DNA from: Haematospirillum jordaniae
Strand: one strand, 5' to 3'
Sequence record: NZ_CP014526.1
DNA length: 32,967 nucleotides
Notes under the pieces: generated by a model
Database searches by the model: none
Told to the model about the DNA's origin: nothing
The model's input: only the letters and a program-made list of their open reading frames with translations
Part shown: positions 11,180 to 26,559 of the stretch, piece by piece
How positions within the stretch are numbered: the first letter of the stretch is position 1
Layout: the number at the start of each line of letters is the position of its first letter
Made by a program: the position numbers and the translations under genes

Positions 11180-11650
11180 TCAGCGCATGGTGAGGCGGCG
11201 GGGCTTCTGAGGCCGGGGCGCGCCCTCTTCAGCGATTGTGTAGTCTTGAGATGCTGCGGGAATTCCCATTTCGCGCCGGGCCAGATCAGCAAGAAAGGCC
11301 GATCGTGTAAGGCCTCGCTCCTTGGCGGCCTGGTCCGTGGCGTCCAGTAATCCGGCATCCATGGTGATATTGGCGCGCACCGTGCGCCCGGTCAGATGGA
11401 TAAACGGCACGGCCAGCAGAAAAGCTCCATTTTTTAAATCTGCCTGAACATCCCGCAGCCGTCGCACGACCTCAAGGGAGCGGGCACGCGGTATGCGCTC
11501 TCCCTCCAGGTGTAGGGCCACAGCCTCGGCGGCATTGGGAAGAAGCTCATCCAGCGTGTCGGCGGCTGAGAAACATCCGGGGACATCCGGAAAGTGTATC
11601 CCGTAGGCACTGTTTTCATCTTGGTGAACAACACCGATGTAATAACGCAT
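11180..11650 (-). CDS. hicB: HicB-family antitoxin (RNase-H-like N-domain plus C-terminal RHH)
   Basis: MRYYIGVVHQDENSAYGIHFPDVPGCFSAADTLDELLPNAAEAVALHLEG is a typical HicB N-domain. C-terminal NITMDAGLLDATDQAAKERGLTRSAFLADLARRE is RHH-like. Sits downstream of hicA. Confidence 0.75.
   Translation of the reverse strand: MRYYIGVVHQDENSAYGIHFPDVPGCFSAADTLDELLPNAAEAVALHLEGERIPRARSLEVVRRLRDVQADLKNGAFLLAVPFIHLTGRTVRANITMDAGLLDATDQAAKERGLTRSAFLADLARREMGIPAASQDYTIAEEGAPRPQKPRRLTMR
11185..11225. other. Candidate cos site (cohesive-end region)
   Basis: About 70 bp past the Q stop sits GGTGAGGCGGCGGGGCTTCTGAGGCCGGGGCGCGCC, resembling the P2 19-nt cohesive end as recalled (GGCGAGGCGGGGAAAGCAC). P2 cos lies about 80 bp from the end of Q. 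A 9-bp-arm inverted repeat GAGTATTGC...GCAATACTC lies just before it (about 11121..11163). Confidence 0.3.
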
Positions 11651-11665
11651 GAACGTCTCTCCTGC

Positions 11666-11893
11666 CTAAAGTAAACCGGCCTGCCGATAAATCTGACGCA
11701 CTGTACCAATCGGAAGGTCCTTTTTGGGATGCGGTACTGTGACAGTCCGGTCCTCGCATTTGAACTTGTGATGGGATCCGGTAGTTCCGACCAGTTCAAA
11801 GCCATGGGCCTCCAGAAGCTTGATCAGTTTTCGGCTGTTTGTCTCAAACACGGTGCCGCTTTGCCTCCCCTTACGCCCAAGGATTATACGCAT
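11666..11893 (-). CDS. hicA: HicA-family mRNA-interferase toxin
   Basis: C-terminus KLIKLLEAHGFELVGTTGSHHKFKCEDRTVTVPHPKKDLPIGTVRQIYRQAGLL is the HicA signature. Start chosen at the ATG near 11893; alternatives are 11923 or an internal start. Confidence 0.65.
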   Translation of the reverse strand: MRIILGRKGRQSGTVFETNSRKLIKLLEAHGFELVGTTGSHHKFKCEDRTVTVPHPKKDLPIGTVRQIYRQAGLL

Positions 11894-11923
11894 TATGATA
11901 CACACGGTCAAGCTTTGGCGCAT

Positions 11924-11939
11924 TATAATACGTATTATA
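11924..11939. promoter_or_regulatory. Palindromic operator/promoter of hicAB (TATAATACGTATTATA)
   Basis: Perfect 16-bp palindrome overlapping TATAAT boxes immediately upstream of hicA. The related direct repeat CGCATTATGATAC is about 30 bp away. Confidence 0.4.
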
Positions 11940-12065
11940 TTCGGGAGAGTGCCCGGCGCAGCCTCACATAGAGGCAGCGATGACGGGACAGCAAAGCAAG
12001 GCAGATACCGCATGCATCCAGCGTGTCAGTAAGGATGGGACGGACACAGCCGCGCCCGCAATAAA

Positions 12066-12100
12066 GACCATTTTCGCAGCGTCACGAAAATGGTGGTGAG
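12066..12100 (-). terminator. Hairpin downstream of the mazEF-like operon
   Basis: ACCATTTTCG-N8-CGAAAATGGT, a 10-bp-arm inverted repeat just after the toxin stop. The T-tract is weak. Confidence 0.3.
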
Positions 12101-12107
12101 ATCTTGC

Positions 12108-12431
12108 TCACCCGAACCCGAGGAACAGCGCCAAAGCCCTATTCACGCTGACCATGGTTTTATCATCCAGCCTGCCAAAAGCCTCGCCCACCTTGTCACG
12201 ACGCACGGTCATAACCTTGTCGACCATGATCTGTGAGGGCTTGCGCAGCCCGTTGTCAGTATCCGGAACAATATCCATGCGGATCAGCGGTGCATCAACC
12301 AATGTGCCTGTCATCAGCAGAACCGAGACGGTTGCCGTCTCAATAAACTGATCGGATTGGATCACCAAGGCCGGGCGCGGCTTCCCGAAGTCGCCCGGCA
12401 AGGAGATAGTCACAAGATCACCGCGCCTCAA
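12108..12431 (-). CDS. PemK/MazF-family endoribonuclease toxin
   Basis: MRRGDLVTISLPGDFGKPRPALVIQSDQF... is a classic MazF/Kid N-terminus. 107 aa. Confidence 0.8.
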   Translation of the reverse strand: MRRGDLVTISLPGDFGKPRPALVIQSDQFIETATVSVLLMTGTLVDAPLIRMDIVPDTDNGLRKPSQIMVDKVMTVRRDKVGEAFGRLDDKTMVSVNRALALFLGFG

Positions 12432-12652
12432 GGTTGCGCCTCATCGTCCAGATCGAGAAGAGCCGCGTCCATAAAGTCATACAAACCAGCGTCTGCCCTG
12501 TCCGCGCGAGCCACAACATGGGCTTGGCGCTGGCATTCCTCTCTGAAACCCGGTTGGCGGGTATCAGGAATCCATATCTGGACTGGCCGGAGTCCCGCAG
12601 CCCTCAGAGCAGCCCGGCGCTTGTTTACCCGCCCAGAGACTGGCGTTGGCAT
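12428..12652 (-). CDS. Cognate antitoxin (MazE/PemI-like, small DNA-binding)
   Basis: 74 aa with a 4-nt overlap with the toxin; acidic C-terminus; RAALRAAGLRPVQIWIPD motif. Confidence 0.55.
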   Translation of the reverse strand: MPTPVSGRVNKRRAALRAAGLRPVQIWIPDTRQPGFREECQRQAHVVARADRADAGLYDFMDAALLDLDDEAQP

Positions 12653-12678
12653 GGGGGCCTCCTGTATATAAGCCTACG

Positions 12679-12692
12679 CGTTACATGTAACG
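12679..12692. promoter_or_regulatory. Operator palindrome CGTTACATGTAACG upstream of the mazEF-like operon
   Basis: Perfect 14-bp palindrome next to TATATA, about 30 bp upstream of the antitoxin start. Confidence 0.4.
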
Positions 12693-12751
12693 TAACCGAT
12701 GGTGGGTGGAGGTGTCAAGACCAGTCTCTTTCCGCGCTTTTTTTAGACCTA

Positions 12752-12835
12752 TCCAGCGAAGACAGCTCACAGCCTTATGCAACTAAATTCAGTTGCATTT
12801 AAAGGATCCTTTCCCTATACTGGGGGCACAAGCTA
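12752..12835. repeat. Direct repeat copy A (about 80 bp), containing the hicAB-2 promoter/operator
   Basis: GCGAAGACAGC..CAGCCTTATGCAACT(A/G)AATT(C/T)AGTTGCAT.TAAAGGATC.TTTCCCTATACT recurs at 13600..13680. It contains the inverted repeat TGCAACTNAATTNAGTTGCA and a TATACT -10-like box, followed by a Shine-Dalgarno and hicA-2. Confidence 0.6.
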
Positions 12836-12849
12836 GGAATTAAGGTGGC

Positions 12850-13104
12850 ATGAACAGGCGTAGCAAGCTGGTGGACCGTTTCCGGGCCTGCCCCAAGGAC
12901 TTCACATGGAAAGAACTGGTGAAGGTTCTGGAAGGCTTTGGGTACACAGAGGTCACCGGCGGCAAGACAGGTGGTTCGCGTCGTCGTTTTATCCATCCCG
13001 ATGCCGCCTCCCTTTCCTTGCACAAGCCGCATCCAGGGACCATCCTGAAGCTGTATGCGCTCGAAGCTGTTTTACAGCATCTGAAAGACGAGGGCCTTCT
13101 ATGA
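12850..13104 (+). CDS. hicA: HicA-family toxin (second copy, long form)
   Basis: FTWKELVKVLEGFGYTEVTGGKTGGSRRRFIHPD...LHKPHPGTILKLYALEAVLQHL is the HicA/YcfA fold signature. Confidence 0.7.
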   Translation: MNRRSKLVDRFRACPKDFTWKELVKVLEGFGYTEVTGGKTGGSRRRFIHPDAASLSLHKPHPGTILKLYALEAVLQHLKDEGLL

Positions 13105-13529
13105 AGACAATGATGGAGTACAAAGGGTATTACGGAAGCGCTGAGTTCAGTCCTGACGACGAGGTTTTTCACGGAAAGCTCGAATTCATCCGCGATCTGG
13201 TCACCTATGAATCAGACGACGCCAAAGGTCTGAAGCGGGCCTTCCATGAAGCCGTTGATGATTACTTGGCGCTTTGCCATGAAAATGGACGCAAGCCGCA
13301 AGTCCCCATGAAAGGCTCCTTCAACGTCCGGGTCGGGCGCGACCTGCATCGCCGCGCCATGCTGAGCGCTCATCGACATGGCGTGGGACTGAACGACACC
13401 GTAACAGAGGCCCTGCGCCGCTACCTGGACGAAGTGGACGAACTGTTACCGGAGCATCTGCGCCATGGCATGCCGGAAGCTCAGGAACACAATGACAAAC
13501 CTGGGCGGCGTCCGCTCGCCTCACGGTAA
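13101..13529 (+). CDS. hicB: HicB-family antitoxin (second copy)
   Basis: ATG at 13101 overlaps the hicA stop (ATGA). N-domain MKTMMEYKGYYGSAEFSPDDEVFHGKLEFIRD... and C-terminal RHH (SFNVRVGRDLHRRAMLSAHRHGVGLNDTVTEALRRYL). Confidence 0.7.
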   Translation: MKTMMEYKGYYGSAEFSPDDEVFHGKLEFIRDLVTYESDDAKGLKRAFHEAVDDYLALCHENGRKPQVPMKGSFNVRVGRDLHRRAMLSAHRHGVGLNDTVTEALRRYLDEVDELLPEHLRHGMPEAQEHNDKPGRRPLASR

Positions 13530-13550
13530 AAGCTGGTAACGGCAGCATCC

Positions 13551-13612
13551 GTGCCGTTTTCCGCCGCTATAGCGGCGCTCCAGAGCGCCTTCCTGAACGA
13601 GGCCGCGAAGAC
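13551..13612 (+). pseudogene. Orphan fragment of a portal (Q-like) gene
   Basis: Encodes ...AAIAALQSAFLNEAA, matching gpQ residues ...YTAALQSAFLNEAA (10640..10680) at about 75% nucleotide identity. It is fused directly to repeat copy B, and no full portal ORF is present there. Confidence 0.5.
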
Positions 13613-13680
13613 AGCCCGCAGCCTTATGCAACTGAATTTAGTTGCATATAAAGGATCTTTTCCCTATACTAATGGCACGG
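13600..13680. repeat. Direct repeat copy B (partner of 12752..12835)
   Basis: Same ~80-bp unit with the TGCAACTGAATTTAGTTGCA inverted repeat. No gene follows on the plus strand. Confidence 0.6.
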
Positions 13681-13932
13681 CAGGAAAAGCAGAAAAAAAC
13701 GAAGTCTCCCCCCGCCACGCTTGCGGCTTAAATATGCCTCACATTCTGCAGTGCAGAGAGTGCCTCTACGCCAGCAGTTGCCTTGCTTTCCACGCACCAT
13801 GGAGACCTGTCAAATCTCTGCATTTTTCTGCTGTTATTCTGCAGTACGCCGCACGGTGATTAACAGGCCGCCAAGGCAATAGCCTATCAACATTACCATA
13901 TCCCCATATTTGTAAATTTACGCATTGCCATA

Positions 13933-14178
13933 TCAGGCGATTGGCGGATAATCATACTTCTTGAACAAATCATTCAGCGCCTCGGTTACAAGCTCCTTTA
14001 TCGAGTTCCGCCGCATCTCAAGTCGCATTTTGTCAACTTGGTAATGCGCCTCTGCCGGTATCTCGACGATCAATTTCTTTGTCGGTCGCTCAATTGGCGT
14101 AAGCCCCGGGTCAATGGTGACAGGCGTTTTAGGCGTGAGTTTATTATGCAATGCAGCGTGCAGGCTTGGCTTTGCCAT
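13933..14178 (-). CDS. parG: ParG-like RHH partition protein (centromere-binding)
   Basis: From the internal start: MAKPSLHAALHNKLTPKTPVTIDPGLTPIERPTKKLIVEIPAEAHYQVDKMRLEMRRNSIKELVTEALNDLFKKY. This is a small basic protein with an RHH fold, immediately downstream of parA. The start is uncertain (overlaps parA by about 35 nt). Confidence 0.5.
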   Translation of the reverse strand: MAKPSLHAALHNKLTPKTPVTIDPGLTPIERPTKKLIVEIPAEAHYQVDKMRLEMRRNSIKELVTEALNDLFKKYDYPPIA

Positions 14179-14803
14179 GTGTCTTGCTCTCCATCTGGTT
14201 AATAATAAAACGGTATAATGCTGCGATTTCTTCGGCGGCTTTACTGTCTGATCCAAGCTCCTGAACGCCCTTGCCCATTGTGAAGGCATGAACAAAGGCC
14301 ATGCGATTGCCAATGGTGACGGGGGCAAGCGCAACGCCGTACCCTCTGATCGCCTCGGCGGCCTCCTCCGTAAGACTCCCGCGCGGTGGAGTTTGGGTCA
14401 GAACGGAAACAGCGGGCTTGCCTGCAAGCTGGGCTATTTTCACACTCGAACTGATTGCGCGTAGATCAACAAGCGACGGCTTGCACGGGATCAAGATCAG
14501 GTCAGCAAAGGCAGCGGCATCCAGAGCATCTTTTTGTGAGTGCGGAGCCGTATCAAAAATGACAAAGGCTGCTCCACTCTGGCGGGCAGTTTCGATGTAA
14601 TGCGGAATGCGGGCGGCATGAAGGGAAATGACTGCGGGTGACTCATCGTCTCGGCTGTCCTTCCACCCCATAGACGATGCCTGCGGATCAAGATCGAAGA
14701 TTGCGGCCGCCCTACCATCACGTTCAGCAGCGATTGCAAGATTAATGGCAAGGGTCGTTTTACCGGCCCCTCCTTTTTGCGATATGACAGCTATTGTCCT
14801 CAT
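14144..14803 (-). CDS. parA: ParA/ParF-type partition ATPase (small type Ib)
   Basis: Deviant Walker A box KGGAGKTT near the N-terminus (MRTIAVISQKGGAGKTTLAINLA). About 219 aa. Confidence 0.8.
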   Translation of the reverse strand: MRTIAVISQKGGAGKTTLAINLAIAAERDGRAAAIFDLDPQASSMGWKDSRDDESPAVISLHAARIPHYIETARQSGAAFVIFDTAPHSQKDALDAAAFADLILIPCKPSLVDLRAISSSVKIAQLAGKPAVSVLTQTPPRGSLTEEAAEAIRGYGVALAPVTIGNRMAFVHAFTMGKGVQELGSDSKAAEEIAALYRFIINQMESKTHGKAKPARCIA

Positions 14804-14804
14804 A

Positions 14805-15060
14805 CCATATCCCCATATTGCCACATTTAATGTTTTTTACATGGCCATATTTACTGATTGTCATACTGCCATAATTATCCAAATTTACAACCCCTTATCA
14901 GGGTACACCTTCGTCGTCGTAAAAAACGTTGTAAGCGTCTTTGCATTCGTCAGAGCATAGCTCCTGCACGTCCACCGATACTATATAGGTATACTTATGG
15001 GGGATTATTTCAGCCGTATCGCGATGCTAAGGCTTTAATCATTAATTGGTGTATACGTAT
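14805..15060. repeat. AT-rich repeat array upstream of parA (candidate centromere/par operator)
   Basis: Multiple (T/G)GCCATA(T/A) and CCATAT motifs (ccatatccccatattgccacat..ggccatatttactgattgtcatactgccataatt). The 16-mer ACCATATCCCCATATT recurs downstream of parG at about 13889. Confidence 0.35.
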
Positions 15061-15353
15061 TTATTTATGATAAAAAGAATACCTTGAACTATAAAATACA
15101 ACATATGATTTTTGAAGTTAGATTCATCCATGAAAAAGATGACTCAATAAACTAAGTCAGATTAATAGCATTAATGGGGTTGTCAGAAAAAAGCCTCTGT
15201 GCTGACATGTAGACCACATTCAACTTCACCTGTATCGATATCAGCGTCATTCACAAGCACAGCTAGAAAAAGCTGATCCGTTTTAATGTTTAGGAACAAT
15301 GGAAAACCAAGCATCACTTGCGTGGGACAACATCAGTACGAGAGAAAATTATA

Positions 15354-15743
15354 ATGTCGAAGAAACGTGTTTTTGTAAGTTTTGACTACGACAATGACAA
15401 TGAATTAAAGGAATTGCTCGTTGGGCAAGCAAAAAATCCCGACACGCCGTTCGAACTCGCAGACTGGTCTATAAAAGAACACCTGACAGGGGATTGGAAA
15501 GATAAAGCAAAAAAAAGAATTCGGTCTGTAGACCAAGTAATTGTTCTCTGCGGCGAGAGCACACACAAGGCAAATGGCGTTGCCGATGAACTTAGAATAA
15601 CTCAAGAAGAGGGAAAAGATTATTTCTTGTTGAAAGGTTATAAGGATAAAGAATGTACAAAACCGACATCAGCTCTTAAAACAGATAAAATGTATACATG
15701 GAATTGGGACAATCTCAAGGCGTTAATAAATGGGAACCGCTAG
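15354..15743 (+). CDS. TIR-like domain protein (DUF1863/ThsB-like)
   Basis: MSKKRVFVSFDYDNDNELKELLVGQAKNP... and VDQVIVLCGESTHKANGVADELRITQEEGKDYFLL match the DUF1863 TIR-like hallmark (RVFISF-DYD start; vivLiGe-T---WV--Ei motif with the catalytic-position Glu). The gene and its surroundings are markedly AT-rich compared with the rest of the window. Confidence 0.7.
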   Translation: MSKKRVFVSFDYDNDNELKELLVGQAKNPDTPFELADWSIKEHLTGDWKDKAKKRIRSVDQVIVLCGESTHKANGVADELRITQEEGKDYFLLKGYKDKECTKPTSALKTDKMYTWNWDNLKALINGNR

Positions 15744-15748
15744 ATCCC

Positions 15749-16249
15749 ATGATTGGCGTCTGGAACAGAGAAAGCAAGGATTGCATCGAACGCGAAAAAG
15801 AGATCGCAACAGAGCAATACAAACTTTATGTTGAGATGGCTGATAAGATCAGCGATCGGCGCGTACATGCAAACAAATTTTATGTTGCCCTCAATTCTAG
15901 CCTAATAGCTTTTTACGGCTTCGCTACAGCCAAGAACTCCATCGTCCAAAATGATTCTTGGCTGTATCTAGTGCTTATAGCCGGAATTCTTATTTGTTTT
16001 TTGTGGATCGAAACCGTCAAATCATACAAGAATATTAATACAGTCAAATTCAAGGTGATACATGAAATAGAGGAACACCTTCCTCTTGCACTATATAAAT
16101 ACGAGTGGGAGCTTGCCAAGCAAGGCGATGGATCAAAATACCGCCCTACATCGCATATTGAAATGATTGTTCCATGGGTATTTGGATTTCTTTACGTAAT
16201 AATTGTATCATGCAAATGCTACTCTTATTTTTTTGAACTTTATCATTAA
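15749..16249 (+). CDS. Small membrane protein with 2-3 TM helices, SLATT-like; candidate effector partner of the TIR protein
   Basis: Starts 5 nt after the TIR stop (same operon). Hydrophobic helices FYVALNSSLIAFYGFATA, WLYLVLIAGILICFLWIETV and IVPWVFGFLYVIIVSC, with a charged N-terminal helix and a helical segment between TM2 and TM3. The size (~166 aa) and topology fit SLATT-type 2TM effector domains that associate with TIR/SMODS/SLOG genes. Same low-GC composition as the TIR gene. Confidence 0.45.
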   Translation: MIGVWNRESKDCIEREKEIATEQYKLYVEMADKISDRRVHANKFYVALNSSLIAFYGFATAKNSIVQNDSWLYLVLIAGILICFLWIETVKSYKNINTVKFKVIHEIEEHLPLALYKYEWELAKQGDGSKYRPTSHIEMIVPWVFGFLYVIIVSCKCYSYFFELYH

Positions 16250-16300: not shown

Positions 16301-16455
16301 TTTCTTAAAGCACCTACGCATAAACGGCCATTTACAAGCCGGTCCGGTTTCGAGACACCGGGCACGGCAACAGGCGGCGTCCACGCTCTCAAAAACCACG
16401 CTTGAAACCATGTCGGTTCTTGGTGATGTTTACGATGCGTTTTGAGGGAGATGTC

Positions 16456-17010
16456 ATGCTGATCGGCTACGCCCGCGTTTCGACGCGAGACCAGACCACA
16501 GAGCTACAGACAGAGGCGTTGTCGGCAGCCGGTTGCGAGCGCGTGTTCGAGGACCAGACCAGCGGCAGCCGTGAAGACCGTCCCGGCCTTTCCAGTGCGC
16601 TGGATTACCTGCGCACTGGTGACACACTGGTGGTGTGGAAGCTGGACCGTCTGGGCCGGACCGTGAAGCAGCTTGTGCATCTGGTTGACAGCCTTCAGGC
16701 CCGTGGCATCCACTTCCGCAGCCTCACCGACGGCATAGATACCGGAAGCCCGGCAGGCCGGTTCTTCTTCCACATCATGGCCAGCCTTGCCGAGATGGAG
16801 CGCGACCTGATCGCCGAAAGAACACGCGCCGGACTGGACGCCGCCCGGAAAGCCGGACGCAAAGGAGGGCGCCCCGCAAAGATGACCCCCGGCAAGATCA
16901 CGGCAGCCCGCAAGCTTCTGGAAACCGGAACACCCGCCCGCACCGTCGCCGAGAGTCTCGGCGTGTCACCCGCTACACTGTACCGCTGGCTGCCTGCCCA
17001 GACGGCTTAG
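16456..17010 (+). CDS. Small serine recombinase (resolvase/invertase family)
   Basis: MLIGYARVSTRDQTTELQ...GDTLVVWKLDRLGR is the catalytic Ser motif and resolvase N-domain, with a C-terminal HTH (VAESLGVSPATLYRWL). Likely start at 16456 with Shine-Dalgarno GAGGGAG. 184 aa. Confidence 0.85.
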   Translation: MLIGYARVSTRDQTTELQTEALSAAGCERVFEDQTSGSREDRPGLSSALDYLRTGDTLVVWKLDRLGRTVKQLVHLVDSLQARGIHFRSLTDGIDTGSPAGRFFFHIMASLAEMERDLIAERTRAGLDAARKAGRKGGRPAKMTPGKITAARKLLETGTPARTVAESLGVSPATLYRWLPAQTA

Positions 17011-21151: not shown

Positions 21152-22042
21152 AAGAAACAGAATATTGCGTTTGCACCCATGCTCCCCCGTCTCCGGTTGT
21201 GGCCGGAGCAAAGTTCCCGGGAAGAGGCGCTGGTGCTCCGGGGGCTAAAAAAACCGCAACAAGTCGGCCCCGCACACCTTTGGCCTTTCGGCTTGGACAT
21301 GCGCGTGCGGCCCCCGGAACATGGGCATGAAAACACCGCCTTGCGGGGCGGGACCGCTTGTTGTGGGAGATTTTTAGGCTCCTGCCCCGAACCTTACCCG
21401 CAACAGGCGTGGAATGCAAGCACCGCTGTGCTGGCAAAAAGGGCGTGGCAAGAACAGAATATTGCGCGTGCACCCATGCTCCCCCGTCTCCGGTTGTGGC
21501 CGGAGAAACCACACCGGAAGAAGGTGCAGGCGCTCCGGGGGTTAAAACCGCCGCAACAAGTCGGCCCCGCACACCTTTGGCCTTTCGGCTTGGACATGCG
21601 CGTGCGGCCCCCGGAACATGGGCATGAAAACACCGCCTTGCGGGGCGGGACCGCTTGTTGTGGGAGGGTTTTAAGCTCCTGCCCCGAACGTTACCCGCAA
21701 CAGGCGTGGAATGCAAGCACCGCTGTGCTGGCAAAAAGGGTGTGGCAAGAACAGAATATTGCGTTTGCACCCATGCTCCCCCGTCTCCGGTTGTGGCCGG
21801 AGCAAAGTTCCCGGGAAGGGGTGCTGGTGCTCCGGGGGATAGAAACACCGCAACAAGTCGGCCCCGCACACCTTTGGCCTTTCGGCTTGGACATGCGCGT
21901 GCGGCCCCCGGAACATGGGCATGAAAATACCGCCTTGCGGGGCGGGACCGCTTGTTGTGGGAGGTTTCTATTCTCCTGCCCCGAACGTTACCCGCAACAG
22001 GCGTGGAATGCAAGCACCACTGTGCTGGCAAAAAGGGCGTGG
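21152..22042. repeat. Tandem repeat array: 3 copies of a 297-bp unit (about 90-95% identical)
   Basis: Units begin GAACAGAATATTGCG(T/C)(T/G)TGCACCCATGCTCCCCCGTCTCCGGTTGTGGCCGGAG at about 21154, 21452 and 21749 (period 297 = 99 codons). Long ORFs are open on both strands purely because of the 3n periodicity. Confidence 0.85.
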
Positions 22043-22108
22043 AAACGGTGTCTTGGTACTGCAATGCACGGGACACACCATCGATGTTCCTGATCTGTTC
22101 GGCATCAA

Positions 22109-23543: not shown

Positions 23544-24056
23544 GTGCCGGATGGTTTTAATGCGTTGCAAAGAGAGGTTCGGTCCGCCGCATCCCGATCC
23601 CCGGAATTTTTGTCTTTTGACGGCCTAGTGGATGCTGAAGACGTCTGCGACAAGGCCGTCTGCATGGAATACACCAATGCTGACGGTGGAAAGTCGAAGC
23701 GATGGATCACGATGCGCAGCATCGACGAGGACGGACCAACGCCGAAGTTTTTCGCCTATTGCTGGGTGCGCCGCCAAGTGCGCTCCTTCCGGGCCGATCG
23801 CGTAGAAACGTTTATAGACTGTGATGGCGAATGCATCTCCGGGCGGGATTTTTTCGAGAGAATCGGCGTTAATCTCCCGCCGCCCGCCTCAGTAAGCCGG
23901 TCACGCAAGAAGAGCCGGAAAGCCGATACGGAACACAGCAGCTATAACAGCAGCAGCGGAACCGCCGCCACCACGGAGTCTGCTGGAACAGGAAACACTA
24001 TCGCAACGCTCGTCTTTATCGGCTTTGTTATTTACCTGATCAGCCTGCTCTTTTAA
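23544..24056 (+). CDS. WYL-domain protein with a C-terminal transmembrane anchor
   Basis: KSKRWITMRSIDEDGPTPKFFAYCWVRRQVRSFRADRVETF matches the WYL-domain consensus (..YL.AYC..R...R.FRxDRI). Then a Ser-rich linker and the terminal hydrophobic helix IATLVFIGFVIYLISLLF. Shine-Dalgarno AAGGAAGGAGAG, 21 nt after the CI stop. Confidence 0.5.
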   Translation: MPDGFNALQREVRSAASRSPEFLSFDGLVDAEDVCDKAVCMEYTNADGGKSKRWITMRSIDEDGPTPKFFAYCWVRRQVRSFRADRVETFIDCDGECISGRDFFERIGVNLPPPASVSRSRKKSRKADTEHSSYNSSSGTAATTESAGTGNTIATLVFIGFVIYLISLLF

Positions 24057-24143: not shown

Positions 24144-24181
24144 TGAATTGTGCTTGATTTGCGCATATTATGCGCTATAAT
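24144..24181 (+). promoter_or_regulatory. Sigma70-like promoter TTGATT-N16-TATAAT with an embedded palindromic operator GCGCATATTATGCGC
   Basis: Near-consensus -35/-10 boxes with a perfect 15-bp palindrome in the spacer. It is followed by a ~200-nt GC-rich leader with strong hairpins (GGGGGCGGGCTGGTCCGCCTCCCC; CCGGGAGGGAGAGATCAGCTCTCTCCCGG) before the first ORF. Confidence 0.4.
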
Positions 24182-24379
24182 CGGAGGCGTGGTCAGGGGG
24201 CGGGCTGGTCCGCCTCCCCGCCACGAAACAGAGGAAGAGCATGGAAAAACTTCCATTCTTCCTCTCCCTTCGGGTTAAATTTCTGGGTCTTACCCTGAAA
24301 CTTGTAATCCGGAGGTAGAGGACACCGGGAGGGAGAGATCAGCTCTCTCCCGGACCTCTGAAAGGATAAGGCAGCACTC

Positions 24380-24547
24380 ATGAAAATGCAACTCCGTGGA
24401 TTTGCCGCCGCCTTGCTGCTGGCAGCCCTTCTGGGGGCCTTGGCCTTGCTTGTCAGCGGGTTGCTCGCGGCCTTGGCGATAGCTGTACCTGTTCTTGTTA
24501 TTCTGGCCGTGCTGTTTGGAAAACCAGTGCAGGAGGATGACCAATGA
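24380..24547 (+). CDS. Small hydrophobic protein (55 aa, 2 predicted TM helices). Not in the ORF track because it is under 60 aa.
   Basis: Shine-Dalgarno AAGGATAAGG then ATG. Product MKMQLRGFAAALLLAALLGALALLVSGLLAALAIAVPVLVILAVLFGKPVQEDDQ. The stop overlaps the start of the downstream HTH gene (ATGA). Confidence 0.35.
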   Translation: MKMQLRGFAAALLLAALLGALALLVSGLLAALAIAVPVLVILAVLFGKPVQEDDQ

Positions 24548-24771
24548 CACCACGTGATTTCAGGGCCTGGCGGCGAAAGATGGGCCTGACCCAAGAGCAG
24601 GCGGCTGAACTTCTTGGCATGGGCCGTACTGCTGTATCACAGTACGACACAGGCAAACGCCGCGCCCCGGCAGAGGTTATAGAGACAGTGCCCCGGTATA
24701 TTGCGCTGGCATGCGCAGCCATCAGCCACGGACTTGCGCCGTATGGTTCGGATGAGGAGGAAGGCCGCTAG
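24544..24771 (+). CDS. XRE-family HTH transcriptional regulator
   Basis: MTPRDFRAWRRKMGLTQEQAAELLGMGRTAVSQYDTGKRRAPAEVIETV is a classic Cro/CI-type HTH. 75 aa. Confidence 0.6.
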   Translation: MTPRDFRAWRRKMGLTQEQAAELLGMGRTAVSQYDTGKRRAPAEVIETVPRYIALACAAISHGLAPYGSDEEEGR

Positions 24772-24822
24772 GCCTTCTCACAGGCAGAAATATCGGTTGT
24801 GAATCCGCCGCTCCCGATCAGG
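24768..24822. repeat. 55-bp direct repeat copy 1 (duplicate of the 3' end of gene D)
   Basis: CTAGGCCTTCTCACAGGCAGAAATATCGGTTGTGAATCCGCCGCTCCC recurs at 25576..25630. Both copies encode the same C-terminal peptide SGGFTTDISACEK(A/V). Confidence 0.6.
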
Positions 24823-25190
24823 TCATCGGCATCTATGCCAAGGATATTCGCCAGACTGCTCGCCATAATGGGCGACATAACCCGACGCCCTGTTTCCAGT
24901 TGCGAAATATAGTTCGCCGTACATCCGGCCTTCTCTGCAAGGCTTTTCTGTGACAAGCCTCGGTATGTCCGGTAGACATGCAGCGGGTTCTCACCGTCCA
25001 AAAGCCTGTTGACCAGAGCGGCTGGCCATGTCTCTTCGTTCGGGTCATGTGTGGCAAGGACGAGCGCGGCGAGATCCTCATCGCTTAAGGCCGATTCCGC
25101 TTGTTCTGCGAGCCGCCGGAATATCTCAAACGGCAGCACCACCCCTACCGGAGAGCCTGTGTGGTCCTTTATGACCGATACTTTCAGCAT
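24768..25190 (-). CDS. HigA-like antitoxin (N-terminal toxin-neutralising domain plus C-terminal XRE HTH)
   Basis: HTH GLSQKSLAEKAGCTANYISQLETGRR. Located immediately downstream of the RelE-like toxin. The last 18 codons derive from the duplicated gene D 3' end. Confidence 0.6.
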   Translation of the reverse strand: MLKVSVIKDHTGSPVGVVLPFEIFRRLAEQAESALSDEDLAALVLATHDPNEETWPAALVNRLLDGENPLHVYRTYRGLSQKSLAEKAGCTANYISQLETGRRVMSPIMASSLANILGIDADDLIGSGGFTTDISACEKA

Positions 25191-25206
25191 GGTATCCTCT
25201 TATAGG

Positions 25207-25455
25207 TTAGTAGGCGCTTCCGCGCGGGGCTATCTTCTGCACATCCAGCACGAAGCCGTCTTCGGAATAAATAACGCGGTATGTACCAACACGCAGGCGG
25301 TACATACCCGTACCCACCAGCGGCTTTATATCCAAATCGGGCCGCGCGGGATTTTCTGCCAATTGCGTTATTTTTTCCCGAATTTGGTGGGCGCGGTCCC
25401 GTGGGATCTTTAGCAGGGCCTTTCTGGCCGCCCTGCTGTATTCAATTTCAAGCAC
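25207..25455 (-). CDS. RelE/ParE-family toxin
   Basis: MLEIEYSRAARKALLKIPRDRAHQIREKITQLAENP...MYRLRVGTYRVIYSEDGFVLDVQKIAPR is a typical RelE/ParE layout. 82 aa. Confidence 0.7.
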   Translation of the reverse strand: MLEIEYSRAARKALLKIPRDRAHQIREKITQLAENPARPDLDIKPLVGTGMYRLRVGTYRVIYSEDGFVLDVQKIAPRGSAY

Positions 25456-25575
25456 CGCCCGCGATCCTCACCAACCTTCAGTTTTGGCAAGGTACTCTGT
25501 AAAGATGTCTGTGTCAATATTATATATTACCTCTGTCAATATCGCAGTATGACTGTGGCATACTATACAGCTAAG

Positions 25576-25630
25576 CCGCTAGACCTTCTCACAGGCAGAA
25601 ATATCGGTTGTAAATCCGCCGCTCCCATCG
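25576..25630. repeat. 55-bp direct repeat copy 2 (native 3' end of gene D)
   Basis: See 24768..24822. Confidence 0.6.
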
Positions 25631-26559
25631 ATTGTGTGCGTAACATCGTCGGCGATCCAGTTCATGCGGCAGATCTCCGGGGACCAGCCGACAAGGTTCA
25701 GCGGCATTCCGGCGCACAGGTCGGGCTTGCCGAGCGCCAGCGACAGAGTCAATTCATTGGCGCCGCGCTGGCGCTGCTTCCACGCTGCAGCCGCTGCGTC
25801 CTCCGCATCCTTGCGGCTGGTGTATATCTTTTTAAGGGTCTTGACCGATCCCCCCTCGCGACCCGCTATAACCGTCTCGGTAGATCCTGTTGACAGGTTA
25901 TGCCACTTGGCTGCGATGCCTGTTGTTGATCCCTCGCGATCAGACGTGCGGAAGCTGTGGCGGTCGCTGTCCCGACGGTTGATGGTTAGAGACGGCATTG
26001 CCGCCCCAGAGGCCGTAACACCGGACGCGGCTGGCAGGAACAGCAAGCGACCGGCCTTGATCGTTGACAGCGCGTCATGATCTTCACCCAGACGGCTGAT
26101 GAAGTTGAGGTCGCTTTCGTTGGTCTGGTCGATGTGATCGATTGCAATTGCCGCCAGATCCGGGTGAATGGCGGAGGCCAATCCATGGCGCTCGGCAATG
26201 GATCCAAGAACTGAACCAATGTTTGTCGCCTCGTAACTGGCCTCGCGCTGGTCCTTCAGCGCCCCCTGAAAATCAGCCGATCGCGCCGTAATCCGGATGA
26301 CATCCGGCGGTCCCTCGTGTCCGATTTCATCAACAACAAACTGGCCCTTGTCGACGAGGGCCTCCCCCTTCCAACCTATCGCCAGCGACAACCTGACGCC
26401 GCGTGCGGGCAGGGCAATCGATCCATCATCAAACACACTCAGTTCAAGCTGGTCTGCCTCCATGCCGGATTTGTCCAAAAGTCGAAGCGCGAGAAGGCGA
26501 TGCGCAAAGGCTGTTGTGATGTCCCGGTCTTCCGCAAGGATACGCCAGTCCGGTATCAT
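25579..26559 (-). CDS. D: Tail protein / late control protein gpD
   Basis: 326-aa ORF following U. P2 D-family features, and it is the terminal gene of the tail operon. Confidence 0.8.
   Translation of the reverse strand: MIPDWRILAEDRDITTAFAHRLLALRLLDKSGMEADQLELSVFDDGSIALPARGVRLSLAIGWKGEALVDKGQFVVDEIGHEGPPDVIRITARSADFQGALKDQREASYEATNIGSVLGSIAERHGLASAIHPDLAAIAIDHIDQTNESDLNFISRLGEDHDALSTIKAGRLLFLPAASGVTASGAAMPSLTINRRDSDRHSFRTSDREGSTTGIAAKWHNLSTGSTETVIAGREGGSVKTLKKIYTSRKDAEDAAAAAWKQRQRGANELTLSLALGKPDLCAGMPLNLVGWSPEICRMNWIADDVTHTIDGSGGFTTDISACEKV

What the first reader, a model, noticed from the sequence alone, without database searches (positions are those of the whole stretch)
24768..25630. 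relE/higA-like cassette inserted after gene D with a 55-bp duplication of the 3' end of D; the antitoxin ends with the D-derived peptide
The last 55 bp of gene D (25576..25630) are repeated at 24768..24822, so the antitoxin ORF and gpD share the C-terminal residues SGGFTTDISACEK. The TA cassette lies exactly between the two copies. This is the second cassette in the element bounded by long direct repeats that duplicate a phage gene end, suggesting a recurrent insertion or recombination mechanism. It also displaces the region where P2 carries ogr-att-int.
Basis: seen in the sequence. Interest (0 to 1): 0.55.

Follow-up and report, generated by a model that had tools for sequence, protein, structure and literature searches.

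The report
Tail-gene scar fused to an antitoxin
A 52-base leftover copy of the end of phage tail gene D sits between two add-on gene cassettes, and a later 20-base deletion made the antitoxin gene read into it; this is an ordinary by-product of phage gene shuffling, not a new insertion mechanism.

Summary
Window 24764-24815 repeats 25575-25626 (50 of 52 bases; none expected by chance). A ParE/RelE toxin plus XRE-HTH antitoxin pair lies between the copies, and the antitoxin ends with 14 residues identical to the gpD C-terminus.

- **The peptide is native to gpD.** GGFTT is conserved across gpD homologues.
- **The toxin-antitoxin (TA) pair next to D is the widespread state.** It occurs in at least six downstream contexts, including a 67%-identical lineage.
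- **A clean presence/absence pair shows no duplication.** L152 and L154 have about 97% identical flanks, and the filled site has no D duplication.
- **The D remnant travels with a different cassette.** This is a 606-nt two-gene module (small membrane protein plus HTH) that also occurs elsewhere in P2-like and T7-like phages.
- **The fusion is secondary.** Relatives keep the native tail I(A/G)PSET*. Haematospirillum jordaniae elements lost 20 nt between two TGATCGG repeats, so translation continues into the remnant in D's frame.

Best reading: a scar from a non-allelic crossover between related phage genomes carrying different cargo downstream of D. The second cassette's repeats are promoter copies, not a gene end. 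Interest is low to moderate; this is a known kind of feature.

The parts
25579..26559 (-). gpD (P2 late control D / tail baseplate hub), 326 aa, intact, ending ...IDGSGGFTTDISACEKV*
   Evidence: Pfam PF05954, 45.7 bits. It is 98% identical to H. jordaniae P0001. The C-terminal GGFTT motif is conserved across the gpD homologues fetched.
25575..25626 (.). Proximal repeat copy: the last 45 sense nt of D, its stop codon, and 4 nt downstream (CGGC)
25456..25578 (-). Spacer between D and the toxin gene, holding the presumed TA promoter/operator. It has two 12-nt direct repeats, ATATTGACA(G/C)AG, at 25509-25520 and 25531-25542, 22 nt apart. The left end (CGGC...GCTRTATAGTATGCCACAGTCAT) is conserved in all TA-bearing relatives.
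   Evidence: The consensus scan found no full sigma-70 match, so promoter function is inferred.
25207..25455 (-). ParE/RelE-superfamily toxin, 82 aa, GTG start
   Evidence: PF05016, 37.7 bits against a cutoff of 23. It is intact in all relatives.
24814..25190 (-). Native part of the XRE-HTH antitoxin (residues 1 to about 126, ...GIDADDLIG). The toxin-then-antitoxin order resembles HigBA.
   Evidence: PF13560 47.8 bits and PF01381 42.4 bits, with the HTH at residues 70-125. Homology to type N relatives runs to window 24814.
24768..24813 (-). D-derived C-terminal tail of the antitoxin (SGGFTTDISACEKA plus D's own TAG). It is read in D's frame because the native PSET* codons were deleted.
24764..24815 (.). 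Distal repeat copy: the truncated D 3' end remnant (scar). It lies between the TA cassette and the mem55-HTH75 module.
   Evidence: It is present with indels and non-coding in L001/L196. Only a 9-11-nt vestige is left in L197-199.
24153..24758 (+). Independently mobile two-gene module. It has a promoter-like site at 24154-24181, a 55-aa hydrophobic protein at 24380..24547, and an MqsA-like HTH protein at 24544..24771. The last four codons and stop of the HTH protein (EEGR*) lie outside the module, in the junction and D-remnant flank.
   Evidence: It is 82-84% nt identical over 606 nt to L190 (P2-like, next to the portal gene) and L191 (T7-like). Promoter scan. Pfam. Homologues end ...GSDED* or ...GSEED*.
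23544..24056 (+). Conserved anchor gene on the far side of the variable region (170 aa, weak WYL hit)
   Evidence: It is 87% nt identical to L152 directly beside the empty site and is conserved in L197-L201.

Best explanation
The element is a P2-like phage, probably a phage-plasmid, of Haematospirillum. The interval between tail gene D and the WYL/CI-like regulator genes is a cargo hotspot.

In this phage group a ParE/RelE toxin plus XRE-HTH antitoxin pair sits immediately after the D stop codon. The 52-nt second copy of the D end is not a target-site duplication made by that pair. It is a recombination scar: a truncated D 3' end that sits directly next to a different cargo unit, the 606-nt mem55-HTH75 module.

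The most likely origin (inferred) is a non-allelic, microhomology-level crossover between two related genomes.
- One parent broke just after the antitoxin stop (...CTTGATCGG).
- The other broke 51 nt before the end of D (...ATCGATGG|GAGCGG).
- The product stacks both cargos and leaves a piece of D between them.

The antitoxin-gpD peptide fusion came later. The ancestral arrangement was antitoxin ...CTGATCGGCCCGTCTGAAACTTGA followed by TCGG|GAGCGGCGGATTC... (the D remnant). The H. jordaniae lineage lost the 20 nt between two 7-nt direct repeats (TGATCGG). That removed the native codons P-S-E-T and the stop, so translation runs through the remnant in D's frame to D's old TAG.

The tail lies outside the HTH domain and is probably functionally neutral. 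The TA pair itself presumably acts as an ordinary autoregulated type II addiction or abortive-infection module.

Shown here: the repeat, the comparative states and the position of every junction. Inferred: the crossover model, the polarity of the events and TA function.
For: - **The repeat is real and non-random**.
- **The peptide is native to gpD**.
- **The antitoxin cluster at 90% identity or more has 14 members**.
  - Five end I(A/G)PSE(T/A)*.
  - Two end TNSVLS*.
  - Others are 142, 149 and 179 aa with unrelated tails.
  - The 140-aa fused form is found only in H. jordaniae.
- **Junction alignment**.
  - L001/L196 carry the native end CCGTCTGAAGCTTGA directly upstream of the same D remnant, displaced from the gene body by a 188-nt insert.
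  - L197-199 have the contiguous native end plus a short vestige of the remnant joined to codon 10 of mem55. This is a deletion of window 24413-24813.
  - The window differs from the inferred ancestor by exactly the 20 nt between two TGATCGG repeats.
- **The fused form cannot be ancestral.** It lacks the native tail codons that L001 retains.
- **The TA pair is linked to D in several other contexts.** These are L153 (95.6% nt), L197-199 and the 67%-identical L154/155. L200/201 carry the same TA pair, but the contig starts just after D's stop position.
- **L152 is the empty site of the L154 lineage.** Its flanks are 97.5% identical and it has no D duplication.
- **The mem55-HTH75 module is mobile and has defined ends**.
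- **The two D copies were probably identical when the remnant formed.** Both lineages point to the same ancestral sequence, so the scar is young relative to the TA-D association.
- **Similar scars occur elsewhere.** There is a portal-gene fragment at 13566-13608 and an internal duplicate of the antitoxin 3' end in P0138.
- **Literature.** P2-like hotspots swap cargo by recombination, and small gene remnants are seen there (PMC9122126; bioRxiv 10.64898/2026.02.27.708500).
Against: - No genome with the postulated second parent, D followed directly by the mem55-HTH75 module without the TA pair, was found. All contigs carrying the near-identical HTH75 are L001-type.
- The inferred ancestor itself, with native tail plus intact remnant and no insert, was not observed. 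It is reconstructed from three derived states.
- The 5-6 nt after the remnant's stop (CGGCC) resemble the left end of the TA cassette. The second parent would therefore also once have carried that cassette end, which adds a step.
- A Campbell-type single crossover of a small circle would give the same final structure.
- Most relatives are short metagenomic contigs.
- TA function and tail neutrality are untested. The AlphaFold model is of low confidence (mean pLDDT 47.7).
Confidence: 0.65

Rival explanations
1. One reading: the TA pair is a mobile cassette that inserted after D by a mechanism that duplicates about 50 bp of the target. The same mechanism would also have placed the HicAB cassette.
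For: The TA pair lies exactly between the two D-end copies. A second cassette in the window is also flanked by long direct repeats (74 nt). TA cassettes are swapped at one site in L002 versus L068.
Against: - The clean empty/filled pair L152/L154 has no duplication and no shared att-like core.
- The TA pair occurs without a remnant in L153 and L200/201.
- The cassette has no recombinase gene and no terminal inverted repeats.
- The 74-nt repeats are promoter copies, not a gene end.
- The remnant abuts a different mobile module.
Confidence: 0.1
2. Campbell-type integration. A small circular DNA carrying the last 51 nt or so of D plus the TA pair recombined by a single homologous crossover with the D end of a phage that had the mem55-HTH75 module directly after D. 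This would give direct repeats around the TA pair.
For: It produces exactly the observed topology. The two copies were near-identical at origin. The repeat's distal edge lies where the TA-left and HTH75 flanks diverge.
Against: It needs a circle of about 0.8-1 kb formed by an earlier illegitimate event, plus recombination on about 55 bp of homology. That is two rare steps against one. No such circle and no recipient was seen.
Confidence: 0.15
3. The D-derived tail is adaptive. It would give the antitoxin a new property, such as a degron, a gpD mimic or a link to late gene expression, and is retained for that reason.
For: The fused form is fixed in all H. jordaniae copies seen (at least 8 contigs). 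It stays in frame.
Against: - The tail already varies by a non-synonymous change (T to A in L150/L151/P0136).
- Close relatives work with at least five unrelated tails.
- The tail lies beyond the HTH domain.
- It has the lowest pLDDT in an admittedly poor model.
- These copies differ by only about 1.5% in nt, so shared ancestry is enough to explain retention.
Confidence: 0.04

Closest known systems
Cargo hotspots of P2-like phages (Rousset et al. 2022, PMC9122126; bioRxiv 10.64898/2026.02.27.708500)
   Same: A short locus between conserved phage genes shows high cargo turnover. TA and defence cassettes are swapped among close relatives, and gene remnants are left by recombination. This window also has the classic portal-adjacent hotspot: HicAB twice, MazEF, and TIR plus 8xMP.
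   Different: The locus studied here lies after tail gene D, not next to cos/Q. The host is an alphaproteobacterium (Haematospirillum). The element appears to use ParA and a resolvase rather than an integrase.
Morons and mosaic joints in tailed phages (Hendrix/Juhala model of illegitimate recombination followed by selection; from general knowledge)
   Same: Self-contained units with their own promoter sit between essential genes. Novel joints fall at or just past gene ends. Surviving joints keep the neighbouring genes intact.
   Different: Here the scar is unusually legible. It is a 52-nt copy of a structural-gene end, and it has since become coding by fusion.
HigBA / RelE-ParE type II toxin-antitoxin systems
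   Same: The toxin belongs to the RelE/ParE superfamily. The toxin gene precedes an antitoxin with an XRE-type HTH. The genes are tightly spaced (16 nt).
   Different: The antitoxin does not reach the HigA equivalog threshold (17 against 47.7 bits). It has a roughly 65-residue N-terminal extension and a foreign 14-residue C-terminal tail.
Integrative elements that duplicate a gene 3' end (attL/attR around tRNA or protein-gene ends)
   Same: Direct repeats of about 50 bp cover a gene's 3' end and flank inserted DNA.
   Different: There is no integrase in or beside the insert. The empty and filled relatives share no conserved core. The duplication is absent at the same site in relatives.

Membership tests
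Type II TA, RelE/ParE-superfamily toxin | Toxin matches the RelE/ParE fold family above the curated threshold | tested here: met
   PF05016 ParE_toxin, 37.7 bits against a cutoff of 23, residues 4-79. There was no NCBIfam hit.
Type II TA, RelE/ParE-superfamily toxin | Adjacent small antitoxin gene with a DNA-binding domain, co-oriented and tightly spaced | tested here: met
   The toxin gene ends at 25207 and the antitoxin gene starts at 25190. HTH_31 scores 47.8 bits. The pair is conserved together in all relatives.
Type II TA, RelE/ParE-superfamily toxin | Toxicity, and neutralisation by the antitoxin | not testable with these tools
   Only an indirect argument is available: the toxin ORF is intact in cultured isolates that carry the fused antitoxin.
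HigA antitoxin family (TIGR02607) | Score above the equivalog cutoff | tested here: not met
   17.0 bits against a cutoff of 47.7. It is best described as a generic XRE-HTH antitoxin in HigBA-like gene order.
Transposable or insertion element with target-site duplication | The same kind of duplication at independent insertions, terminal inverted repeats, and its own recombinase | tested here: not met
   The L152 (empty) and L154 (filled) pair shows no duplication. No inverted repeats were found at the cassette ends. Only the toxin and antitoxin are encoded.
Site-specific integration (att sites) | A core sequence shared by the empty site and both junctions, with an integrase nearby | tested here: not met
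   The empty site reads TAGGTCTGTGATCCGACCGGTGGCGG. The filled junctions read TAGTCGCGGCC... and ...TGATCTGGGGCGCGGCGG. They share no core. The only recombinase seen is a serine resolvase 8 kb away. Its sites were not examined.
Phage cargo hotspot (variable locus between conserved anchor genes) | Conserved flanking genes with several alternative contents among close relatives | tested here: met
   Between D and the WYL-like gene, seven states were seen:
- empty (L152);
- TA only (L154);
- TA plus an RHH ORF (L200);
- TA plus a truncated module (L197);
- TA plus scar plus module (window);
- TA plus a 188-nt insert plus scar plus module (L001);
- other downstream sequence (L153, P0121, P0141).
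Moron (autonomous cargo unit) | The same unit occurs in unrelated phage backgrounds with its own promoter | tested here: met
   Window 24153-24758 is 82-84% nt identical to units in a P2-like contig and a T7-like contig. Promoter-like TTGATT-16-TATAAT lies at its first bases. Promoter activity is untested.

The most novel reading that the evidence does not exclude
The D-derived tail has been co-opted. It could act as a degradation tag or a gpD-like interaction peptide that ties antitoxin stability, and hence toxin release, to tail assembly or late gene expression of this or a competing P2-like phage. A milder version: the retained D-end repeats serve as portable homology arms that allow reversible loss and gain of the TA pair.
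Probability: 0.04. Interest if true: 0.65.

Novelty: new member of a known kind. Interest (0 to 1): 0.27.

Why it matters
This is a clearly resolved, multi-step example of how cargo accumulates in a phage hotspot.
- Two mobile cassettes were stacked, and a structural-gene fragment was left as a scar.
- Microhomology deletions and insertions then rewrote the C-termini of both neighbouring regulators.
- The antitoxin's C-terminal tail proves freely replaceable.

The case shows that long direct repeats around a cassette need not mean a dedicated insertion mechanism. It also identifies a D-proximal hotspot in alphaproteobacterial P2-like phage-plasmids that could be mined for cargo. It does not reveal a new mechanism.

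Tried and rejected
1. **A 206-nt deletion from an L001-type ancestor.** This was my first idea for the fusion. I dropped it once the native I(A/G)PSET* tails and the L197/L200 sequences showed that L001 carries a 188-nt insertion and that the window differs by a 20-nt deletion.
2. **A decayed D-end copy downstream of the TA pair in L152/L154.** The local alignment score was 8.5, reached by about half of 2000 shuffles, so it is not significant.
3. **Close relatives in the annotated phage and plasmid collections.** Only weak gpD hits at 67-70% were found.
4. **Exact-pattern scans for the D end.** Only L001 was found in the viral contigs and nothing in the metagenome contigs.
5. **Search for the hypothetical parent with D directly followed by HTH75.** All contigs carrying the near-identical HTH75 are L001-type. 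The viral and metagenome scans returned only relatives at 47% identity or less.
7. **Structure prediction of the fused antitoxin.** The model is too poor to use beyond noting that the tail is its least confident part (mean pLDDT 47.7).
8. **Terminal inverted repeats or an att core at the cassette ends.** None were found.

Full report
**1. Observation**

Window 24764-24815 and 25575-25626 are a 52-nt ungapped direct repeat with 2 mismatches. No other site in the window comes within 3 mismatches, and none appeared in 100 dinucleotide-preserving shuffles.

The minus strand carries three genes here:
- gpD, 25579..26559, Pfam Phage_GPD;
- a ParE/RelE toxin, 25207..25455, PF05016;
- a 140-aa XRE-HTH antitoxin, 24768..25190, with the HTH at residues 70-125.

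The antitoxin ends DDLIGSGGFTTDISACEKA*. gpD ends IDGSGGFTTDISACEKV*. On the plus strand, a 55-aa hydrophobic protein (24380..24547) and a 75-aa MqsA-like HTH protein (24544..24771) converge on the antitoxin. The two stop codons share the palindrome CTAG.

**2. Whose peptide is it?**

In about 150 gpD homologues from viral and bacterial contigs, the C-terminal region reads ...H(T/S)x..(G/D)GFTT(S/A)LELE.... GGFTT is therefore native to gpD. Antitoxin relatives at 90% identity or more do not end this way.

**3. Source and relatives**

The gpD is 98% identical to a Haematospirillum jordaniae protein.
- Two H. jordaniae contigs (L150, L151) are 98.5-98.6% identical to the window and carry the same fusion, with one T-to-A change in the tail.
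- Nothing close exists in the annotated phage or plasmid collections.
- The window also encodes ParA, a serine resolvase, a TIR protein with an 8xMP membrane protein, two HicAB pairs, MazEF and Ogr.
- No tyrosine integrase turned up among the ORFs scanned. The element looks like a P2-like phage-plasmid.

**4. States of the interval downstream of D**

| State | Loci | Content after D |
|---|---|---|
| Empty | L152 (D 73% aa; 77% nt over 6 kb) | D stop, 184 nt, then the WYL-like gene (87% nt to window 23551-24052) |
| Filled, same lineage | L154/L155 | TA pair placed right after the D stop, ending at the antitoxin stop |
| Type N2 | L200/201 | TA pair with native tail IAPSET*, then an unrelated RHH ORF |
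| Type N | L197-199 (95% nt) | D, TA pair with native tail IGPSET*, TGA, then TCGGGGGCGGC joined to codon 10 of the 55-aa gene |
| Type L | L001, L195/196 (Haematospirillum sp. 15-248), L202-204 | D, TA pair, D remnant, HTH75 |
| Type W | window, L150, L151 | the fused form |

Notes on these states:
- **L152 versus L154.** L154's D end is 97.5% identical to L152's, and the downstream flank is nearly identical too. The filled site has no D-end duplication and no shared core sequence.
- **Type N2.** The L200 contig begins just after the D stop position, so D itself is not seen there.
- **Type N.** Window 24413-24813 is missing.
- **Type L.** The antitoxin reads DDL|TNSVLS*. A 188-nt insert separates the gene body from its native end, CCGTCTGAAGCTTGA, which still lies directly upstream of the remnant.
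- **Further variants.** L153, P0121/P0137, P0141 and P0138 have still other sequences after ...DADDL.

**5. Polarity of the events**

- The tail I(A/G)PSE(T/A)* is shared by relatives with different downstream DNA, so it is the native end.
- Type L retains those codons next to the D remnant. An ancestor with native antitoxin, then D remnant, then HTH75 must therefore have existed.
- Type W lacks those codons, so it cannot be ancestral.
- The inferred ancestor reads ...CTGATCGGCCCGTCTGAAACTTGATCGGGAGCGGCGGATTC... Deleting the 20 nt between the two TGATCGG repeats gives exactly the window sequence CTGATCGGGAGCGGCGGATTC. This reads L-I-G-S-G-G-F in D's frame and stops at D's old TAG.
- Type N is a separate deletion, probably at GCGGC microhomology.
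- The 140-aa form is confined to H. jordaniae.

**6. What the remnant belongs to**

Window 24153-24758 is 82-84% identical over 606 nt to a unit found in two other backgrounds: next to the portal gene of a P2-like contig (L190, from the same sequencing run as L152) and in a T7-like contig (L191).
- The unit begins with a promoter-like TTGATT-16-TATAAT at 24154-24181.
- It ends 2 nt before the native stop of its HTH gene. Homologues end GSDED* or GSEED*; the window ends GSDEEEGR*.
- Only 5 nt separate this unit from the D remnant.
- The remnant therefore lies exactly between two independently mobile units, and both neighbouring regulators have C-termini rewritten by the joints.

The two D-end copies in the window and in L001 point to the same ancestral sequence. 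The scar is therefore young relative to the D-TA association, which is shared with a lineage whose cassette is only 67% identical.

**7. Mechanism**

The simplest model is one non-allelic crossover between two related genomes with different cargo after D.
- One parent broke just past the antitoxin stop (CTTGATCGG).
- The other broke 51 nt before the end of D (ATCGATGG|GAGCGG).
- Homologous exchange, or simple continuity, accounts for the rest of the genome.

This stacks both cargos and leaves a D fragment between them. It matches the accepted picture of mosaic phage evolution and of hotspot swapping in P2-like phages, where small gene remnants are noted.

Three weaknesses remain. I did not find the second parent. 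The CGGCC after the remnant's stop resembles the TA cassette's left end. A Campbell-type circle integration gives the same product.

A dedicated duplicating insertion mechanism is disfavoured by L152/L154 and by the lack of a recombinase, terminal inverted repeats or an att core.

**8. Function**

The TA pair meets the sequence criteria for a RelE/ParE-type type II system. The antitoxin is a generic XRE-HTH protein, not a HigA equivalog. Two 12-nt direct repeats, ATATTGACA(G/C)AG, spaced 22 nt apart upstream of the toxin gene are candidate operators.

The D-derived tail is probably neutral, for four reasons:
- it lies beyond the HTH domain;
- it varies even within H. jordaniae;
- at least five other tails replace it in relatives at 90% identity or more;
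- the toxin is intact in cultured isolates that carry the fusion.

The AlphaFold model was too poor to add much.

**9. The second cassette**

HicA (12850..13104) and HicB (13101..13529) are flanked by 74-nt repeats at 88% identity. The repeats are intergenic and carry TTGCAT-17-TATACT plus an 8-bp-arm palindrome. They are promoter/operator copies, not a gene end.

A 45-nt internal fragment of a portal gene lies at 13566-13608, beside the second copy. So the window holds another structural-gene scar at a cassette boundary. This supports recurrent illegitimate recombination in general, not one specific insertion mechanism.

**10. Verdict**

The feature is a recombination scar plus a secondary microhomology deletion, in a cargo hotspot of a P2-like phage-plasmid. 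It is a new example of a known kind, of low to moderate interest.

Noticed in passing
window 13566-13608: A fragment of about 45 nt from an internal part of a portal (Q) gene. It is 91% nt identical to the L190 portal gene, and 12 of 12 residues (AALQSAFLNEAA) equal the window's own portal residues 156-167. It lies just upstream of the second copy of the 74-nt promoter-like repeat that flanks HicAB, so it is another structural-gene scar at a cassette boundary.
   Followed up: partly
window 12756-12829 and 13605-13678: The 74-nt direct repeats (88% identical) around HicAB are promoter/operator-like: TTGCAT-17-TATACT with the palindrome ATGCAACT-N6-AGTTGCAT. The second copy faces a stretch with no obvious ORF, which could be an orphan promoter or the remains of a lost cassette.
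   Followed up: partly
window 24153-24758: A self-contained two-gene module: a 55-aa hydrophobic protein plus an MqsA-like HTH protein. It recurs at 82-84% nt identity in a P2-like contig next to the portal gene (L190) and in a T7-like contig (L191). Its function is unknown; it could be a small membrane toxin with its regulator, or an exclusion module.
   Followed up: partly
window 21156-22045: Three tandem copies of a 297-nt unit (92-96% identical) lie between the 84-aa HTH gene and the gene upstream of ogr. The related Haematospirillum sp. 15-248 contig (L196) has a single copy. They could be iterons or a repeat protein; this is unresolved.
   Followed up: no
window 11180-16249 and 16402-17010: The portal-adjacent cargo region holds HicAB twice, MazEF, ParA with an RHH partner, a ThsB-like TIR protein with an 8xMP membrane protein, and a serine resolvase. 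No P2 A-type replicase or tyrosine integrase appeared among the ORFs scanned, which suggests a phage-plasmid lifestyle.
   Followed up: partly
P0138/P0140 (antitoxin cluster members; no window coordinates): A 179-aa antitoxin variant carries a second, diverged copy of its own 3' end (LGIDADDLIDPPEAV ... LGINADDLPEAV). This is another gene-end duplication at the same hotspot.
   Followed up: no
L002 9459-10079 versus L068 9317-10060: In two more distant P2-like prophages (gpD 45-50% identical), HicAB and a RelE/XRE pair occupy the same site just after ogr. This is TA cassette swapping at a second hotspot.
   Followed up: no
L156 105-800 and 869-1140: An antitoxin relative is fused in frame to a BrnA-like domain (231 aa). 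It converges on a HicB gene that is 90% nt identical to window 13267-13529. The same cassettes are rearranged in another element.
   Followed up: no
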